A stretch of 64,000 nucleotides of DNA from an uncultured Clostridia bacterium (GCA_930979925.1 CAKNIB010000002.1:46910-110909), one strand, 5' to 3'. Positions 57,562-62,635 are shown, counted from the first letter of the stretch. Numbers and translations: made by a program. The notes: generated by a model not told the origin, from the sequence alone.

Positions 57562-58617
57562 ATGAGCATTATTGAACAAGTTAAAAATGAATTATTAAGA
57601 AGAAATCAAGATTATATTGAAAAAGTTGATAGTTATGATTTTTGGAATAATCATATCAAATTTGTAGTTGATGAAGCATTAAAACTTGCAAGTGTCTATG
57701 GTGCTGATAAGGAAATAGTAGAACTTGGAGCATTATTGCACGATATTGCCCTTGTTTCTAATGTTGGAACAAAAGCAGACCACCATACAAATGGAGCAAA
57801 AATTGCTGAGGAAATCCTAACTAACTTAAAATATTCACAAGATAAAAGAGAAAGAGTTGTAAATTGTGTTTTGCACCACAGAAGCTCGAAAAATGCAGAA
57901 AATATAGAAGAATTATGCGTTTGCGATGCCGATATTCTTGCCCACTTTGACAATATTCCAATGATTTTCTTCAAGTCTTTTACTATGGGCAAAATGACTT
58001 TAAATGATATGGGTGTGTTCATTCAAGGCTTTCAAAAAGATTTTGATGATTTAAGTGACAAAACAAAAGAAACTTTTAAAGATAAATACGAAAATATAAT
58101 GCAAGTTCTTTTCGGTGAAAATTGGAGACAACCTATAAGTTTTGAAGAAAGAGATACTAAATCTAATCATATTGAAACTATAATTCACAAAATTGCCGAC
58201 TTGTGCAAAAATGACATTAAATCTTTCCCAGAAATAAAGTGTATGGATTATGTGGATATTTTCCCAAGAAGTGAAGAAGATAGAGTGCTTTTAAATGATG
58301 AAGCAATTAAAATAGGCAACATCATTGAGAAAAACGAAAGAGGAACAACATATCGTTTAAATAAACCAATATCAACTGAACTTGGGAACATTGAATTGTT
58401 GAAAATCCGTAAATTTGATGAAACAAGATTGCCTTGGCTTGGTGCAGGTGATTTTATTGTAAATGATTTTGATAAATTTAAAAACAAATATCAAAATGCA
58501 AAAAATTGCAAATATGTTGAAGCTCCAACTTATAATGCAATTGAAATAAAAACTGATAATACCCTTGCTTATGTTATGGACATACCAACAAGCGAATATT
58601 ATAAAACTAAATCTTAA
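57562..58617 (+). CDS. HD-domain phosphohydrolase with a ~160-aa C-terminal extension
   Basis: H...LHDIA...H...D pattern (GALLHDIALVS, VLHHR, CDADILAHFD). Confidence 0.75.
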   Translation: MSIIEQVKNELLRRNQDYIEKVDSYDFWNNHIKFVVDEALKLASVYGADKEIVELGALLHDIALVSNVGTKADHHTNGAKIAEEILTNLKYSQDKRERVVNCVLHHRSSKNAENIEELCVCDADILAHFDNIPMIFFKSFTMGKMTLNDMGVFIQGFQKDFDDLSDKTKETFKDKYENIMQVLFGENWRQPISFEERDTKSNHIETIIHKIADLCKNDIKSFPEIKCMDYVDIFPRSEEDRVLLNDEAIKIGNIIEKNERGTTYRLNKPISTELGNIELLKIRKFDETRLPWLGAGDFIVNDFDKFKNKYQNAKNCKYVEAPTYNAIEIKTDNTLAYVMDIPTSEYYKTKS

Positions 58618-58691
58618 CAATTTAAAAGCAACCTTTTTGACTTTGAAGATAGACAAAGCTCCACAAAAGAGAAAATTGATTTTGAAAAATA

Positions 58692-58720
58692 TTGACTTTT
58701 TGAGATAATTTGGATATAAT
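58692..58720 (+). promoter_or_regulatory. trpS leader promoter
   Basis: TTGACT, 17 nt, TATAAT. Confidence 0.7.
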
Positions 58721-58748
58721 AAAAATATCTTAATCAAAAGGAGTAAAT

Positions 58749-58784
58749 ATGTTTAGTTCATTTATTTGGTGGCGCAAAAAATAA
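58749..58784 (+). CDS. Trp-codon leader peptide MFSSFIWWRKK
   Basis: AAGGAG SD 6 nt upstream. Tandem TGG TGG at 58767-58772. Lies between the promoter and a terminator upstream of trpS. Confidence 0.65.
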   Translation: MFSSFIWWRKK

Positions 58785-58873
58785 AAGCGTTCGCAAAATG
58801 TTTTGTGAATGCTTGTCTTTGCGTCACAAAACATATAAATGGATTAAATGTTTTCAAATATAATCTTTAAATT

Positions 58874-58917
58874 TCCCGTTGGTATGTTTTGTAGGAAAAC
58901 AATCAACGGGATTTTTA
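58874..58917 (+). terminator. Attenuator terminator upstream of trpS
   Basis: cccgttg...caacggg with an inner gtttt/aaaac helix, followed by ATTTTT. Confidence 0.75.
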
Positions 58918-58942
58918 ATATCAAAAAAAAGGAGATTATATT

Positions 58943-59135
58943 ATGAAAGAAAAAGTAATGCTCACAGGAGTTAGACCAAGCGGAAATATAACTCTTGGAA
59001 ATTATTTAGGAGCAATCAAAAATTTTGTTGATAGACAAGACACATACAAAAGTTATATATTTATTGCGGATTTGCACGCAATCACAAGTCCGCAAAATCC
59101 ACAAAAACTTAAAGAAGCGGTATATAACTGTGTGA
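58943..59135 (+). pseudogene. trpS: Tryptophanyl-tRNA synthetase, N-terminal fragment
   Basis: MKEKVMLTGVRPSGNITLGNYLGAIKNF... Homology to TrpRS ends near residue 62. Confidence 0.8.
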
Positions 59136-59350
59136 CATTAAAAAAGTGTGGGCAGACATATCTCACCGATGTGAAAAATCAAAAAAAGACGCTAGGTATA
59201 CTAGTCCTTCGCTCAATATTTCTTGCTACAGTCAGTTTTATTTTTGGTATCATCTTAAAGGCAATATTTAAATCATGATAAATTAAAAACATAATTTTTG
59301 AAAATATATCGATAATAAATAAAGAAAATGTGGTAAGTTTTGAAATTTAG

Positions 59351-59379
59351 TTGACAAATCCACCCCCCCGTTTTATAAT
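59351..59379 (+). promoter_or_regulatory. Promoter with a C7 homopolymer in its 17-bp spacer
   Basis: TTGACA, aatccaCCCCCCCgttt, then TATAAT. Confidence 0.65.
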
Positions 59380-59409
59380 GGCGGTGAGAGTGAATTTAAG
59401 GAGGTTAAA

Positions 59410-60144
59410 ATGCAAAAAACAAAATCTAGAAAAATTTGGGCGGTGCTCGCTGTTTCTGTTATGCTTGTTGCATTCATGTTTTTAGCAACTGCCTGTGGTG
59501 GTTCAAAGACTGAAAGCGTTTCCACATATCAGGAACTTGTTGACGCCCTTGCTGGAAATTGCGACATCGTTAAACTTGAAAACGACATCGTTGTTGAAGA
59601 TGGCTTGGTTGTTACAAGAGAAGTTGTGCTTGACATGAATGGAAAAACTCTTTCTAACAATGAGGACATTTGGCATGAAGTACAGCCGGGAGAAGAGGGA
59701 GTTAGCACTCTTTCTATCATCGCTGTTGAAGAAGGTGGAGATTTGACCGTTAGAGGCAACGGAACAATTCGCGCGAAAGAAAATGACTGCTACGCGTTTG
59801 ATGTTTCAGGTGGCGGACACCTTGTTATTGAAGACGGCACATATGTTGGAAATATAAGCGTTGTTTATGTTTTAGATGGTTCTGCTGAAATTAAAGGTGG
59901 AAGATACTCTATTCAACAACTCGATAATAAAAAAGACTATCAGTTCACATTAAATTTACAAGGTGAGTGCTATGAAAATGGAACAGGAAGCATTGTTGTG
60001 ACAGGTGGAACTTTTGAGAATTTTGATCCATCAAAAAACGCCGCTGAAAGTGATGACCTTTCCACAAACTTTGTTAAAGAAGGATATATTTCAACTTTAA
60101 CTATGGAAGGTGATTTGATAACATACGTTGTGACAGAGGCGTAA
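59410..60144 (+). CDS. Lipoprotein (cassette inserted in trpS)
   Basis: Lipobox LATAC, SD AAGGAGG, 244 aa. Confidence 0.75.
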   Translation: MQKTKSRKIWAVLAVSVMLVAFMFLATACGGSKTESVSTYQELVDALAGNCDIVKLENDIVVEDGLVVTREVVLDMNGKTLSNNEDIWHEVQPGEEGVSTLSIIAVEEGGDLTVRGNGTIRAKENDCYAFDVSGGGHLVIEDGTYVGNISVVYVLDGSAEIKGGRYSIQQLDNKKDYQFTLNLQGECYENGTGSIVVTGGTFENFDPSKNAAESDDLSTNFVKEGYISTLTMEGDLITYVVTEA

Positions 60145-60168
60145 TTTAACTTTAGTATTTTTAAAAAG

Positions 60169-60201
60169 TTGTATGAGTTGCTCTCCTCATACAATTTTTT
60201 T
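60169..60201 (+). terminator. Intrinsic terminator of the cassette
   Basis: ttgtatgag...ctcatacaa followed by TTTTTTT. Confidence 0.8.
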
Positions 60202-60217
60202 ATTGCTATTAAAACTT

Positions 60218-60832
60218 TTTGTTTATCCACCTCTTATGGTCGCAGATATTTTGCTTTACAACACAAGTATTGTACCGGTCGGAAAAGACCAACAGCAACA
60301 CGTTGAACTTACTCGTGATTTAGCGGAAAGATTTAATAAGCGTTATGGCAAAACTTTTCTTATGCCAGATGTCTATATTGCGCCTATTGGAAACAAGATT
60401 TTAAATTTGCAAAATCCACTTGAAAAAATGAACAAATCCGACAACGGTGACAACAAAGGCACAATCTTTCTTATGGATAATGTTGAAACTGTCAAAAAGA
60501 AGATTATGAGTGCAAAAACAGATAGTTTAGGAACTATTCACTTTGATGAAGAAAATCAACCCGGAATTTCCAATCTTATGAGCATTTTATCCAAAATCAC
60601 AAATGAGAGTTTTGAAAGCATTGAGGCTCGCTATAAAGGAAAAGGATATGGCGAATTTAAAAGGGAAGTTGCGGAAGTTGTTGCAAATTTATTAAATGAA
60701 ATTCAATTAAGATTTAAGAAGTTTAATGATAAAAATTTACTTGATGAAATTCTATCGAGCGGAGCAAAGCAAGCACAAGTTGTGGCGAACGAAACTCTAA
60801 AAAGAGCAACAAAAGCACTTGGATTGAATTAA
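60218..60832 (+). pseudogene. trpS: Tryptophanyl-tRNA synthetase, C-terminal fragment
   Basis: YPPLMVADILLY...VPVGKDQQQHVELTRD...KMNKSD... About 60 residues of the Rossmann/CP1 region are missing between the two fragments. Confidence 0.8.
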
Positions 60833-60858
60833 AAGTTGTAAAAATTTTGTATCAAGTC

Positions 60859-60887
60859 TTGACAACTTTTCAAAATATGATTATAAT
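60859..60887 (+). promoter_or_regulatory. tyrS leader promoter
   Basis: TTGACA, 17 nt, TATAAT. The downstream AAAAATAT.TTA resembles the trpS leader. Confidence 0.7.
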
Positions 60888-60908
60888 AAAAATATATTAG
60901 GAGAAAAT

Positions 60909-60956
60909 ATGAAAAAATTATTTGCAAACAACTCATATTATTACTACTACATTTAG
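60909..60956 (+). CDS. Tyr-codon leader peptide MKKLFANNSYYYYYI
   Basis: AGGAG SD. Five consecutive Tyr codons at 60936-60950. Confidence 0.7.
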   Translation: MKKLFANNSYYYYYI

Positions 60957-61035
60957 ATTGCTATATGTAGGAGTTTTTGTGAGCACAAATAATTAAATAT
61001 TTCAAAAAACATCTGTCATATAGCAAAATCGCTAT

Positions 61036-61090
61036 GTGGCAGTTTTTATTTTAATTCTGCCACGAGTGAAAACTTATGGCAGATTTTTTA
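61036..61090 (+). terminator. Antiterminator/terminator pair upstream of tyrS
   Basis: GTGGCAG (61036-42) pairs with CTGCCAC (61057-63). Alternatively TCTGCCA (61056-62) pairs with TGGCAGA (61077-83), followed by T6. Confidence 0.7.
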
Positions 61091-61105
61091 TTATAAGGAG
61101 TTTTT

Positions 61106-61186
61106 ATGAAAAGATTTATTTTTAGAACATACGCCCATTTGGGCGTGAAAACGATTTTATTTTTTAATAAAAATTTGATAAAATAA
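61106..61186 (+). CDS. Second upstream ORF (26 aa, MKRFIFRTYAHLGVKTILFFNKNLIK)
   Basis: SD AAGGAG. Ends 14 nt before the tyrS ATG. Contains the hairpin acgccc-attt-gggcgt. Confidence 0.3.
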   Translation: MKRFIFRTYAHLGVKTILFFNKNLIK

Positions 61187-61200
61187 AAAAGGAGTTAATT

Positions 61201-62430
61201 ATGAGATTTAAAAATAACGCTTTTGAGCAATTGGAGAATAGAGGATTTGTTTTTCAAACAACGAACTTGGAAGAAACAAAAAGAATTTTAAGTGAAGGTC
61301 CTATAACTTTTTACATCGGCATTGACCCAACAGCCGATGACCTGCACATTGGTCACTTTTTTGGCCTTCAAATGGCAAGAATATTACAAGATTGTGGACA
61401 TAAATGTATTGTGCTTATTGGTGGAGCAACCGCTCTTATTGGCGATCCAAGCAACAAGACAGATATGAGAAAAATGCTAACAAAGGAAGAAGTTGCCCGT
61501 AATGCAAAAGAAATTAAAGGACTTCTTGAAAGGTTTATCGTGCTTGAAGGTGAAAATCCTGCAATTATAGTTGATAATGCCGACTGGCTTAAACCAATAA
61601 CCTACATCGACTTTCTTCGTGGTGTTGGAGTGAATTTTAATGTGAGTGAAATGCTTAAAAAAGACTTATACAAAAATAGATTGAAGCAAGGCGGGTTGAC
61701 CTTTATGGAAATGGGATATATGCTTATGCAAGCCTTTGATTTCATTCATCTTAATGATAAATTTGGCTGTGTCCTGCAAATTGGTGGCTCTGACCAATGG
61801 GGAAACATCGTTGCAGGAACAGAACTTAGCCGAAAAATGAATTTTAAAGATGGAACCGAAAGACCGCTTATGATGGGCTTAACTTGTCCACTTCTCACAA
61901 ATGCTGAAGGGATAAAAATGGGCAAAACTGAAAAAGGCACTTTATGGGTGTCAAGAAGTAAAACATCAGCGTTTGATTTCTTCCAACATTTTGTAAATTG
62001 CCTTGATGCCGATGTTGAAAGATTGCTTCGATTTTTCACGAAGATTGATGTCAAAGAAATTCAGAAGATGTGCAAAGAAGATATTGTGAAAGCCAAAAAA
62101 CTTATGGCTTTTGAAGTGACAAAACTTGTTCATGGTGAAGTTGAAGCTGAAAAAGTGAGAAAGACAAGCGAAGAGCTTTTCTCAAAAGGTAAAGCCGATG
62201 AAAATATGCCAACCGAAGAAATTAAACTTTCTGGCAAGATAAATGTTGTCGATTTCCTTTCGCAACTTTCAATATTTAATTCAAAGTCTGAAATAAGACG
62301 ACTTATTGAGCAAAGCGGAATTATGATTGATGATAAAAAAGTTGAAAATATAAATGAAAACATTGACCTAACAAAGAAAGAAATAATTGTCAAAAAAGGC
62401 AAGAAAACCTTTTTGAAAGTAAAGTTGTAA
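61201..62430 (+). CDS. tyrS: Tyrosyl-tRNA synthetase
   Basis: HIGH motif (DLHIGH), KMGKT (KMSKS-like), and a C-terminal S4-like domain. Confidence 0.95.
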   Translation: MRFKNNAFEQLENRGFVFQTTNLEETKRILSEGPITFYIGIDPTADDLHIGHFFGLQMARILQDCGHKCIVLIGGATALIGDPSNKTDMRKMLTKEEVARNAKEIKGLLERFIVLEGENPAIIVDNADWLKPITYIDFLRGVGVNFNVSEMLKKDLYKNRLKQGGLTFMEMGYMLMQAFDFIHLNDKFGCVLQIGGSDQWGNIVAGTELSRKMNFKDGTERPLMMGLTCPLLTNAEGIKMGKTEKGTLWVSRSKTSAFDFFQHFVNCLDADVERLLRFFTKIDVKEIQKMCKEDIVKAKKLMAFEVTKLVHGEVEAEKVRKTSEELFSKGKADENMPTEEIKLSGKINVVDFLSQLSIFNSKSEIRRLIEQSGIMIDDKKVENINENIDLTKKEIIVKKGKKTFLKVKL

Positions 62431-62450
62431 TGATTTACAACAAAACAAAA

Positions 62451-62488
62451 AAGAGTGTTAAAGGCATTTTGCCGATGACACTCTTTTA
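62451..62488 (+). terminator. Intrinsic terminator after tyrS
   Basis: aagagtgt...acactctt followed by TT(T). Confidence 0.6.
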
Positions 62489-62635
62489 ATATATATAACT
62501 AATTGTTCTTTTTATTCTTTGTTTTGTGTTGAAAATTAATATTTTTAAAAGAAATTAAAATAAAGAAAAGTTTTCTTATTCGTTAGTAGAAGTAAGTTTT
62601 TGCTTGCTTCTTTTTTTGTTGTGTAAATTTTTTTA

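What the first reader, a model, noticed from the sequence alone, without database searches (positions are those of the whole stretch)
58692..58942. Trp-codon leader peptide attenuator, not a T-box, upstream of trpS
Order of elements:
- A consensus promoter (58692-58720).
- An AAGGAG SD and an 11-codon ORF, ATG TTT AGT TCA TTT ATT TGG TGG CGC AAA AAA TAA (MFSSFIWWRKK), with two adjacent Trp codons.
- A chain of mutually exclusive helices.
- An intrinsic terminator (cccgttg/caacggg plus a T-run, 58875-58916), 26 nt before the trpS ATG.

Helix relay, derived by hand:
- ATGTTTTGTGA (58798-58808) pairs with TCACAAAACAT (58824-58834).
- AAAACAT (58828-58834) can instead pair with ATGTTTT (58849-58855).
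- TGTTTTC (58850-58856) can instead pair with GAAAACA (58895-58901), inside the terminator.

The first segment starts 14 nt after the stop codon. A ribosome at the stop would mask it, and one stalled on TGG TGG would not. This is the logic of E. coli trpL, but applied to an aminoacyl-tRNA synthetase gene in a low-GC Gram-positive-type genome, where T-box riboswitches are the textbook mechanism. I see no specifier-loop or T-box architecture here.
Basis: partly seen in the sequence, partly recalled or inferred. Interest (0 to 1): 0.8.

Follow-up and report, generated by a model that had tools for sequence, protein, structure and literature searches.

The report
Tryptophan leader-peptide attenuator before trpS
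A tiny upstream gene with two adjacent tryptophan codons, followed by RNA hairpins that cannot all form at once, most likely lets uncultured gut Bacillota switch on their tryptophanyl-tRNA synthetase gene when charged tRNA-Trp runs low; this is the classic E. coli trp attenuation mechanism, found where a T-box riboswitch would be expected.

Summary
The described elements are all present: promoter 58692-58720, SD, 11-codon ORF MFSSFIWWRKK (58749-58784), terminator 58874-58916, trpS ATG 58943. There is no T-box, although the same search finds T-boxes before trpS, valS-like and pheS-like genes in relatives.

In 40 related genomes a 10-13 codon ORF with an invariant ATG and two in-frame Trp codons sits before trpS, or before trpB-trpS; 38 of 40 also have an SD. 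So the core reading, a Trp leader-peptide attenuator, is well supported.

Helix ATGTTTTGTGA:TCACAAAACAT is conserved (99% paired). The other two helices are at control level.

The conserved logic is:
- The ORF itself pairs with 58818-51.
- A nested hairpin spans 58785-58814.
- The antiterminator is 58826-42 paired with the terminator 5' arm, 58876-92.

In constrained folds, a ribosome on UGG gives the antiterminator in 34/34 leaders, and a ribosome at the stop gives it in only 4/34.

Other points:
- tyrS, 2 kb downstream, has its own leader, MKKLFANNSYYYYYI.
- trpS in this window is broken by a 1.08-kb cassette, whereas another strain has it intact.

This is a new member of a known kind, and the evidence is computational only.

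The parts
58692..58720 (+). Sigma-70-type promoter, TTGACT-17-TATAAT.
   Evidence: Scores 11/12. A match of at least 10/12 ends 18-38 nt before the leader ATG in 38 of 40 homologous leaders.
58738..58743 (+). Shine-Dalgarno AAGGAG of the leader ORF, 5 nt before the ATG.
   Evidence: Read. An SD is present at this distance in 38/40 homologues, although the surrounding sequence is not conserved.
58749..58784 (+). Leader ORF MFSSFIWWRKK plus stop. Most of it (58749-58778) is also segment 1, the 5' arm of the long hairpin.
   Evidence: The ATG is invariant in 34/34 aligned leaders. ORFs of 10-13 codons occur in 40 relatives.
58767..58772 (+). Tandem Trp codons UGG UGG, the proposed sensing codons.
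   Evidence: WW occurs in 38 of 40 leaders and W.W in 2; 11 leaders have a third Trp codon. They are the last codons, give or take one, at which a stalled ribosome still gives the antiterminator.
58785..58814 (+). Nested hairpin S1:S2, AAGCGUUCGCAAA / UUUGUGAAUGCUU, -14.7 kcal/mol. It sequesters segment A unless a ribosome at the stop codon melts S1.
   Evidence: 92.7% of cells are paired and 5 pairs have changes on both sides. RNAalifold predicts it independently.
58798..58808 (+). Segment A, AUGUUUUGUGA.
   Evidence: 99.2% of cells are paired and 2 pairs have changes on both sides. It forms with P = 0.99 when the ribosome is at UAA, and in 30/34 homologues.
58818..58851 (+). Segment 2, containing B (ACAAAACAUAU.AAUGG, 58826-58842). 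Its alternative partners are the leader ORF, segment A, or the terminator 5' arm.
   Evidence: The ORF:segment-2 helix is 80-90% paired and 9 pairs have changes on both sides.
58876..58892 (+). Segment C, the 5' arm of the terminator, which pairs with B to form the antiterminator.
   Evidence: UAUGUUUU is invariant in 34/34 leaders, while its terminator partner on the 3' arm varies. B:C is 98.4% paired over 11 pairs and 95.0% over 16 pairs, against 32-65% for slid controls.
58874..58916 (+). Intrinsic terminator: a 16-bp stem with one bulge, followed by A and UUUUU.
   Evidence: Folds at -19.7 kcal/mol. 85.5% of cells are paired and 6 pairs have changes on both sides.
58943..59134 (+). trpS, N-terminal 64 codons. 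This is the regulated gene, truncated here. Its SD AGGAG is at 58930-34.
   Evidence: TIGR00233 trpS matches residues 2-65. Aligns to residues 1-71 of the intact L001 TrpRS.
59135..60213 (+). Foreign cassette that replaces 179 nt of trpS. It carries its own consensus promoter (59351-79), a 244-aa lipoprotein-like ORF (59410-60144) and a terminator (60163-60200).
   Evidence: GC content is 38-43% against about 30% in the flanks.
60214..60832 (+). trpS, C-terminal 205 codons.
   Evidence: 91% identical to residues 126-330 of L001 TrpRS.

Best explanation
This is a ribosome-mediated (leader-peptide) transcription attenuator that reports the supply of charged tRNA-Trp.

Transcription starts about 20 nt before a translated 11-codon ORF. 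Three states follow.
1. No ribosome, or the ribosome has been released. The ORF (58749-78) pairs with 58818-51, the nested hairpin 58785-58814 forms, the terminator 58874-58916 forms, and transcription stops 26 nt before trpS.
2. Trp-tRNA is scarce. The ribosome stalls with UGG in the A site and holds the ORF single-stranded, but it leaves the nested hairpin intact. Segment B (58826-42) is then free and pairs with the terminator 5' arm (58876-92) before the 3' arm is made. RNA polymerase reads through into trpS.
3. Trp-tRNA is plentiful. The ribosome runs to UAA and melts the 5' half of the nested hairpin. This frees segment A (58798-808), which captures B, so the terminator forms.

What is shown: the anatomy, its conservation, its covariation and its thermodynamic plausibility. 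What is inferred: translation of the ORF, the kinetic choice between structures, and the response to Trp.

In relatives the same leader precedes trpS or a trpB-trpS operon.
For: Conservation:
- A 10-13 codon ORF with two in-frame Trp codons lies about 190 nt before trpS in 38 loci including the window (a wider scan).
- It lies before trpB-trpS in L030 and L036 (TrpB matches TIGR00263 at 562 bits).
- The ATG is invariant. An SD is present in 38/40 and a promoter in 38/40.
- L033 and L035 (MVNSF.LWIWRL) and L037 (MIFKNLWWQEVIK) keep in-frame Trp codons despite different surrounding sequence.

Structure:
- z = -10.7.
- The termination-state structure is 86.9% paired against 40-46% for slid controls, and 21 pairs have changes on both sides.
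- B:C is 98.4% paired (95.0% over 16 pairs) and A:B is 99.2% paired.
- The 5' arm of the terminator is invariant while its 3' partner varies. This is expected if that arm has a second partner.
- RNAalifold independently recovers the UGGUGG:B helix, the nested hairpin and the terminator.

Ribosome-mask folds of the transcript cut before the terminator 3' arm:
- In the window, P(B:C) is 0.03 free, 1.0 with UGG in the A site, and 0.0 at the stop, where P(A:B) is 0.99.
- Over 34 leaders, B:C exceeds 0.5 in 34/34 (first Trp codon), 33/34 (second), 4/34 (free) and 4/34 (stop).
- The result holds for footprints of +10 to +18 nt.

Specificity:
- tyrS in the same window has an unrelated leader with five Tyr codons and its own antiterminator/terminator logic. 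It is conserved in L085 and L084.
- These are the only WW and YYYY short ORFs in the 64 kb.

There is no T-box.
Against: - There are no expression, Term-seq or Ribo-seq data; everything is computational.
- At equilibrium the full-length leader always folds into the terminator, whatever the ribosome position. The switch must therefore be kinetic, as it is in E. coli trpL.
- The fold model does not single out the Trp codons. A stall anywhere from codon 2 to two codons past the first Trp gives the antiterminator. Trp specificity rests on codon identity alone.
- A:B and B:C are nearly invariant, so they show conserved complementarity with only 1-2 pairs changed on both sides.
- The conserved peptide sequence is confounded with the RNA pairing of the ORF.
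- In B. subtilis, transcription outruns translation (reviewed in PMC7858274). That would disfavour this mechanism if it also holds in this lineage.
- In this window the regulated trpS is disrupted.
Confidence: 0.85

Rival explanations
1. The element is a divergent T-box riboswitch that binds uncharged tRNA-Trp through a UGG specifier. The short ORF is incidental.
For: T-boxes are the usual control for synthetase genes in Bacillota. They exist in this very clade: before a valS-like gene in L047 at 110 bits and before a pheS-like gene in L041 at 76 bits. UGG is the Trp specifier codon.
Against: There is no RF00230 match at the gathering score or at E <= 10. The same search finds T-boxes before trpS in L045 and L043 at 138-144 bits. 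No T-box sequence, Stem I or specifier loop is visible in the 34-leader alignment. The invariant ATG and the conserved SD would be unexplained.
Confidence: 0.01
2. The element is a transcription attenuator switched by an RNA-binding protein or a small ligand. The sensor recognises the thrice-repeated motif AUGUUUUGU/ACAAAACAU. The ORF is not translated, and UGGUGG is conserved only because it pairs with GCGUCAC.
For: The motif and its complement are nearly invariant. That degree of conservation exceeds what helices strictly need. Most of the ORF is base-paired, so RNA constraints alone could conserve its sequence.
Against: - The three motif copies are mutually complementary, and conservation of the alternative pairings explains them.
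- SD and ATG are conserved at a fixed distance within otherwise variable sequence.
- In-frame Trp codons are kept in divergent leaders.
- The unrelated tyrS leader carries YYYYY.
- There are only 4 (G/U)AG triplets, so this is not a TRAP site.
Confidence: 0.08
3. The element encodes a regulatory arrest peptide of the TnaC type. The nascent MF(N/S)SFIWWR peptide, together with free tryptophan, stalls the ribosome, so free Trp rather than tRNA charging is sensed.
For: The peptide sequence is well conserved. Trp-containing arrest peptides are known (TnaC; from my own knowledge).
Against: - The peptide has 10-13 residues, too short to fill the exit tunnel.
- Its conservation is accounted for by pairing with 58835-51, including pairs changed on both sides.
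- Induction of trpS or trpB by excess Trp makes no physiological sense.
- The terminator is intrinsic rather than Rho-dependent.
- There is no conserved C-terminal Pro.
Confidence: 0.03
4. In this particular genome the attenuator is an orphan. Because trpS is broken, it now controls only a TrpRS(1-64) fusion ORF. A separate hypothesis is that it also controls the inserted lipoprotein gene.
For: In the window, 179 nt of trpS are replaced by a 1.08-kb cassette; L038 and L091 share the cassette. L081, from the same species, has trpS intact. The leader is 100% identical between the window and L091, so nothing has decayed yet.
Against: This concerns the present target, not the nature of the element. 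The cassette carries its own consensus promoter. A second trpS elsewhere in the genome cannot be excluded from a 64-kb window.
Confidence: 0.5

Closest known systems
E. coli trp operon leader (trpL attenuator; Rfam RF00513)
   Same: It has a short translated ORF with two adjacent Trp codons. Segment 1 overlaps the ORF. An antiterminator competes for the 5' arm of an intrinsic terminator. A ribosome at the stop codon favours termination. The terminator is thermodynamically dominant, so the choice is kinetic.
   Different: There is no sequence or covariance-model similarity. The target is trpS or trpB-trpS rather than trpEDCBA, and the host is a low-GC Bacillota lineage. The ribosome at the stop cannot reach segment 2 directly; an extra nested hairpin (58785-58814) relays its position by releasing segment A.
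E. coli pheST leader (pheM), and the attenuators predicted for Streptomyces trpS2 and leuS (Seliverstov et al. 2005, PMC1262725)
   Same: These are leader-peptide attenuators that control aminoacyl-tRNA synthetase genes through codons cognate to the enzyme.
   Different: The phyla differ (Proteobacteria, Actinobacteria) and the sequences are unrelated. PMC1262725 states that no Firmicutes synthetase gene was then known to be regulated by classical attenuation.
Salmonella / E. coli his leader (multi-hairpin relay; from my own knowledge)
   Same: More than four segments form a chain of alternative hairpins, so the ribosome position is passed on through intermediate helices.
   Different: The his leader has seven His codons and controls a biosynthetic operon. 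Its sequence is unrelated.
His leader-peptide attenuators predicted in the Bacillus cereus group, Peptostreptococcaceae and Erysipelotrichales (Ashniev et al. 2022, PMC9413887)
   Same: They are classical attenuators predicted by comparative genomics in Firmicutes, in lineages where they replace T-box or HisR control.
   Different: They control his biosynthesis operons rather than synthetase genes, they sense a different amino acid, and their sequence is unrelated.
T-box riboswitch (RF00230)
   Same: It has the same regulatory position and output: an intrinsic terminator before a synthetase gene, relieved when the cognate tRNA is uncharged. T-boxes coexist in the same clade, and one lies in the same locus, L047.
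   Different: A T-box senses tRNA directly without translation. None of its defining elements is present here.

Membership tests
Classical leader-peptide (ribosome-mediated) transcription attenuator | A short ORF with a start codon and Shine-Dalgarno at the 5' end of the leader transcript. | tested here: met
   AAGGAG is 5 nt before ATG 58749 and the ORF has 11 codons. The ATG is invariant in 34/34 aligned leaders and an SD is present in 38/40.
Classical leader-peptide (ribosome-mediated) transcription attenuator | Tandem or clustered regulatory codons cognate to the regulated gene. | tested here: met
   UGG UGG is at 58767-72 before trpS. Forty of 40 leaders have at least 2 in-frame Trp codons. 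The same leader precedes trpB-trpS in L030 and L036.
Classical leader-peptide (ribosome-mediated) transcription attenuator | An intrinsic terminator between the leader ORF and the structural gene. | tested here: met
   Terminator at 58874-58916, -19.7 kcal/mol with a U-run. It is conserved, with pairs changed on both sides.
Classical leader-peptide (ribosome-mediated) transcription attenuator | An antiterminator that is mutually exclusive with the terminator, and an upstream segment overlapping the ORF that sequesters it. | tested here: met
   B:C is 95-98% paired. The ORF:segment-2 helix is 80-90% paired.
Classical leader-peptide (ribosome-mediated) transcription attenuator | The position of the ribosome (regulatory codons versus stop) selects antiterminator versus terminator. 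| tested here: met
   Tested in silico only. B:C forms in 34/34 leaders with UGG in the A site and in 4/34 at the stop. The result is robust to the assumed footprint.
Classical leader-peptide (ribosome-mediated) transcription attenuator | Read-through depends on translation of the leader and on the supply of the cognate charged tRNA. | not testable with these tools
   This needs reporter fusions, Term-seq or Ribo-seq.
T-box riboswitch (Rfam RF00230) | A match to the T-box covariance model (Stem I, specifier loop, T-box sequence, antiterminator bulge). | tested here: not met
   No hit at the gathering score over the whole window, nor at E <= 10 over 58600-61300. Positive controls scored 76-144 bits.
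Trp_leader (Rfam RF00513, enterobacterial trpL) | Sequence and structure homology to the family model. | tested here: not met
   No hit at E <= 10. It works like trpL but is not a homologue.
TRAP-dependent attenuation (Bacillus trp leader) | Nine to eleven (G/U)AG triplets separated by 2-3 nt and overlapping the antiterminator. | tested here: not met
   Only 4 scattered (G/U)AG triplets occur in 58727-58942.
TnaC-type regulatory arrest peptide | A peptide of about 24 residues with conserved W12, D16 and P24, and Rho-dependent termination downstream. | tested here: not met
   The peptides have 10-13 residues and no conserved terminal Pro. The terminator is intrinsic. The defining features are taken from my own knowledge.

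The most novel reading that the evidence does not exclude
In a Bacillota lineage that still uses T-boxes for valS-like and pheS-like genes, the T-box at trpS has been displaced by a translated leader. The same has happened, through an unrelated leader, at tyrS. The trpS scaffold may also be re-targetable by codon swapping: L083 carries the same RNA scaffold with the ORF MFNSFTCWRRRR before an ArgE-like gene. If these leaders work, the pioneer ribosome must keep pace with RNA polymerase in this lineage, unlike the uncoupled transcription reported for B. subtilis.
Probability: 0.3. Interest if true: 0.65.

Novelty: new member of a known kind. Interest (0 to 1): 0.5.

Why it matters
The textbook division is that Proteobacteria use leader-peptide attenuators while Firmicutes use T-boxes or TRAP. 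This division has been rationalised by the weak coupling of transcription and translation in B. subtilis (reviewed in PMC7858274).

Here a well-conserved family of leader-peptide attenuators controls trpS, trpB-trpS and, in an unrelated version, tyrS, across at least 40 species-level genomes of uncultured gut Bacillota. These genomes retain T-boxes for other synthetase genes.

If confirmed, this would:
- give a natural system for asking whether ribosome-polymerase coupling operates in these bacteria;
- supply an un-annotated RNA family for genome annotation;
- illustrate how one tRNA-charging sensor can be replaced by another at the same gene.

The mechanism itself is not new, so the interest is moderate.

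Tried and rejected
- T-box and every other Rfam family: no match.
- A helix between 58857-67 and the trpS SD region 58932-42, seen in the MFE fold: 63% paired against 67% for a slid control, in a poorly aligned stretch. This is inconclusive and not used.
- Equilibrium folding of the full leader with ribosome masks: the terminator always wins. The switch could only be modelled on a transcript cut before the terminator 3' arm.
- Lineage-wide loss of T-boxes in favour of leader peptides: rejected. L047 has a T-box before a valS-like gene in the same locus as its Trp leader, and L041 has one before a pheS-like gene.
- More copies of the motif elsewhere: a pattern search of the window and the 90 loci then held finds it once per locus, always at the trpS or trpB-trpS leader, except in L083.
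- A scan for other leader ORFs with amino-acid runs plus a terminator in the related loci: only the W and Y leaders were convincing.
- tyrS next to trpS in relatives: not the case, so tyrS leaders had to be fetched separately.
- The L083 RRRR variant as an Arg sensor: only UGG and the first Arg codon fall in the antitermination window of the fold model. This is left open.
- Pfam for the inserted 244-aa ORF: no family.
- Repeats at the cassette borders: no mobile-element signature.

Full report
**Observation.**
- promoter TTGACT-17-TATAAT at 58692-58720 (11/12);
- AAGGAG at 58738-43;
- an 11-codon ORF, ATG..TGG TGG..TAA, at 58749-58784 (MFSSFIWWRKK);
- a hairpin CCCGTTG...CAACGGG followed by A and TTTTT, spanning 58874-58916 (-19.7 kcal/mol);
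- the trpS ATG at 58943.

The leader is far more structured than chance: -73 kcal/mol against -33.7 +/- 3.7 for shuffles, z = -10.7. In the whole 64-kb window, on both strands, this is the only short ATG ORF containing WW. Rfam gives no T-box or any other leader family, either at the gathering score or at E <= 10 in 58600-61300.

The minimum-energy fold is one long hairpin in which the leader ORF itself is the 5' arm. AUG..UGGUGGCGCAAA (58749-78) pairs with 58818-51. A nested hairpin at 58785-58814 sits inside it, and the terminator follows. Three copies of one motif stand out:
- A = AUGUUUUGUGA (58798-808);
- B = ACAAAACAUAU (58826-36), the complement of the motif;
- C = UAUGUUUUGU (58883-92), inside the terminator 5' arm.

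B can therefore pair with the ORF, with A or with C.

**Relatives.**
One scan of GTDB species genomes with the C-terminal TrpRS fragment returned 80 loci. About 40 share 67-99% TrpRS identity. All of those are uncultured gut or rumen MAGs, variously labelled Clostridia, Bacilli, Ca. Caccovivens and so on. NCBI places Ca. Caccovivens in Bacillota, Clostridia.

Wherever enough upstream sequence exists, a 10-13 codon ORF with two in-frame Trp codons lies about 190 nt before trpS: 38 loci including the window. In L030 and L036 the same leader precedes trpB-trpS (TrpB matches TIGR00263 at 562 bits). L018 has the same operon but is cut off inside trpB.

Across the 40 leaders:
- 38 have WW and 2 have W.W;
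- 11 carry a third Trp codon (for example WWRW);
- the residue before the stop is free to vary.

The ATG is invariant in the 34-sequence alignment A1. An SD is present in 38/40, and a promoter scoring at least 10/12 ends 18-38 nt before the ATG in 38/40.

More distant trpS genes (about 50% identity; L043 and L045) carry a T-box at 138-144 bits. This serves as a positive control for the negative result in the window.

**Structure tests on A1.**
- The termination-state structure (ORF:segment 2, nested hairpin, terminator) is 86.9% paired against 40-46% when partners are slid. Twenty-one pairs have changes on both sides.
- B:C, the antiterminator, is 98.4% paired over 11 pairs and 95.0% over 16 pairs when extended to AAUGG:CCGUU.
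Neither is better than the slid controls.
- The terminator 5' arm UAUGUUUU is invariant, while its partner on the 3' arm varies. This is the signature of a strand with a second partner.
- RNAalifold, which owes nothing to the window's own fold, recovers the UGGUGG:B helix, the nested hairpin and the terminator.

**Mechanism model.**
With the full leader at equilibrium the terminator always forms. As in E. coli trpL, the decision must therefore be kinetic.

I folded the transcript cut at 58896, before the terminator 3' arm emerges. A ribosome was modelled as an unpaired stretch from P-12 to P+14, counted from the first nt of the P-site codon.

| Ribosome | Structures formed | P(B:C) |
|---|---|---|
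| none | ORF:segment 2 plus nested hairpin | 0.03 |
| A site on either UGG | nested hairpin plus B:C | 1.0 |
| A site on UAA | S1 masked, A:B at P = 0.99 | 0.0 |

The same three-state calculation on all 34 leaders gives B:C above 0.5 as follows:
- 34/34 with the first Trp codon in the A site;
- 33/34 with the second Trp codon;
- 4/34 for free RNA;
- 4/34 at the stop, where A:B forms in 30/34.

Footprints from +10 to +18 nt give the same picture.

The model does not single out the Trp codons structurally. Any stall from codon 2 to about two codons past the first Trp gives the antiterminator, and the flip happens at the last codon or the stop. Trp specificity rests on codon identity, as in every classical attenuator. 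The extra nested hairpin acts as a relay. A ribosome at the stop cannot reach B, which lies 40 nt away, but by melting S1 it releases A, and A captures B.

The data do not support this.

**Independent support from tyrS.**
Two kilobases downstream, tyrS (61201-62430; Pfam tRNA-synt_1b) has:
- a perfect consensus promoter at 60859-87;
- an SD;
- the ORF ATG AAA AAA TTA TTT GCA AAC AAC TCA TAT TAT TAC TAC TAC ATT TAG (60909-56, MKKLFANNSYYYYYI);
- a terminator at 61013-42.

Masked folds give an antiterminator (60958-67 with 61017-26) when the ribosome sits on the Tyr codons, and not when it is at the stop. The leader has no sequence similarity to the Trp leader. It recurs as MTKTFALNSYYYYYI in L085 and MKGLQKYCYNYYCYI in L084. 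More distant tyrS genes (L088, L090) have T-boxes at 80-86 bits. Two unrelated leaders, each carrying the codons cognate to its synthetase, are hard to explain without translation-based sensing.

**The lineage has not lost T-boxes.**
L047 carries an RF00230 match at 110 bits before a valS-like gene, in the same 10-kb locus as its Trp leader. L041, a close relative of the window, has a T-box before a pheS-like gene (76 bits, E = 2.5e-15). The gene names valS and pheS are my reading of the N-terminal sequences and were not checked against a family library. The leader peptides are therefore specific replacements at trpS and tyrS, not part of a general switch.

**Rivals.**
- T-box: excluded (see above).
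- TRAP-type site: excluded, with only 4 (G/U)AG triplets.
- A protein- or ligand-switched attenuator with an untranslated ORF: this cannot be formally excluded, because the ORF is largely base-paired and its sequence conservation is confounded with structure. It leaves the invariant ATG, the positionally conserved SD, the in-frame Trp codons in divergent leaders and the tyrS parallel unexplained.
- A TnaC-like arrest peptide: unlikely, given 10-13 residues, an intrinsic terminator and the wrong regulatory sign.

**Comparison with what is known.**
Functionally this is the E. coli trpL design, with an added relay hairpin reminiscent of the multi-hairpin his leader (the his comparison is from my own knowledge). 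It is not homologous to RF00513.

Leader-peptide control of synthetase genes is known for E. coli pheST and was predicted for Streptomyces trpS2 and leuS. The same paper states that no Firmicutes synthetase gene was known to use classical attenuation (PMC1262725). Classical His attenuators have since been predicted in some Firmicutes (PMC9413887). My full-text searches found no description of trpS or tyrS leader peptides in Firmicutes, although absence from that library is not proof. The reported uncoupling of transcription and translation in B. subtilis (PMC7858274) makes a working ribosome-dependent attenuator in Bacillota somewhat unexpected.

**Caveat specific to this window.**
The regulated gene is broken. 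Residues 72-125 of TrpRS (179 nt) are replaced by about 1.08 kb (59135-60213). The insert carries its own consensus promoter, a 244-aa lipoprotein-like ORF and a terminator. L038 and L091 share this arrangement. L081 is from the same species: its left flank, including the leader, is 99.9% identical to the window, and TyrRS is 99% identical. L081 has an intact 330-aa trpS behind an identical leader. The attenuator here is intact, but its present target is a truncated gene. Whether these strains have a second trpS cannot be seen from 64 kb.

**Verdict.**
The core interpretation is supported and the helix relay is corrected. This is a new, well-conserved member of the classical attenuator class, in an unusual host and at an unusual gene. 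The evidence is computational only.

Noticed in passing
window 60859-61200: tyrS has its own leader-peptide attenuator. It has a consensus promoter at 60859-87, an ORF at 60909-56 (MKKLFANNSYYYYYI, five Tyr codons), an antiterminator (60958-67 with 61017-26) and a terminator at 61013-42. It is conserved in L085 and L084, whereas distant tyrS genes (L088, L090) have T-boxes.
   Followed up: partly
window 61049-61190: After the first tyrS terminator there is a second terminator-like hairpin (CTGCCA..TGGCAG plus a T-run, 61049-82). Its 5' arm can pair with the 3' arm of the first terminator. A second SD-preceded small ORF follows (61106-61186, MKRFIFRTYAHLGV...), which contains the hairpin GCCCATTTGGGC. 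L085 has a similar second ORF and hairpin. The role is unknown.
   Followed up: no
window 59135-60213: trpS is interrupted. 179 nt (TrpRS residues 72-125) are replaced by a 1.08-kb cassette of higher GC content. The cassette carries a perfect consensus promoter (59351-79), a 244-aa ORF with a signal peptide and lipobox (59410-60144; no Pfam family; about 120 uncharacterised homologues in gut metagenomes) and a terminator (60163-60200). L038 and L091 share it. L081, from the same species, has trpS intact.
   Followed up: partly
window 59410-60144 compared with L091 3001-3735: The inserted ORF is only 90.7% identical between the window and L091, while 1.5 kb of left flank (the HD gene, the leader and the trpS N-fragment) is 100% identical. 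The gene is locally hypervariable, whether through recombination or diversifying selection. A 69%-identical homologue sits in a different context, between radC and uvrB (L092-L094).
   Followed up: partly
L036 2201-3597; L030 32-1429: In two relatives the same Trp leader precedes a trpB-trpS operon. TrpB stands alone, which suggests indole salvage. L018 has the same operon but its contig ends inside trpB.
   Followed up: yes
L083 1465-1760: A metagenome contig carries the same RNA scaffold (A, B, C and terminator), but the ORF is MFNSFTCWRRRR, with one Trp and four Arg codons. It lies before an ArgE/DapE-family deacetylase gene rather than trpS. This could be re-targeting by codon swap. In the fold model only UGG and the first Arg codon lie in the antitermination window. 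There is a single example, and the contig may be chimeric at its 3' end.
   Followed up: partly
L047 421-623; L041 8661-8884: T-box leaders precede a valS-like gene (110 bits) and a pheS-like gene (76 bits, below the Rfam cut-off but E = 2.5e-15) in genomes that use the Trp leader peptide for trpS. The two mechanisms therefore coexist.
   Followed up: yes
L034 about 2394, minus strand: A small ORF, MVYSFVLLHHHR, with an SD and a downstream terminator-like hairpin lies divergent from the trpS leader. Its peptide resembles the MVYSFAWWHHN leaders of L031 and L039, but it lacks the A/B/C motif.
   Followed up: no
window 59351-59379, 60859-60887 (compare 58692-58720): There are two perfect 12/12 promoters (TTGACA-17-TATAAT) and one 11/12 promoter within 2.2 kb. 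Promoter-like sites in 57500-62500 number 35, against 19.6 +/- 4.6 in shuffles.
   Followed up: no
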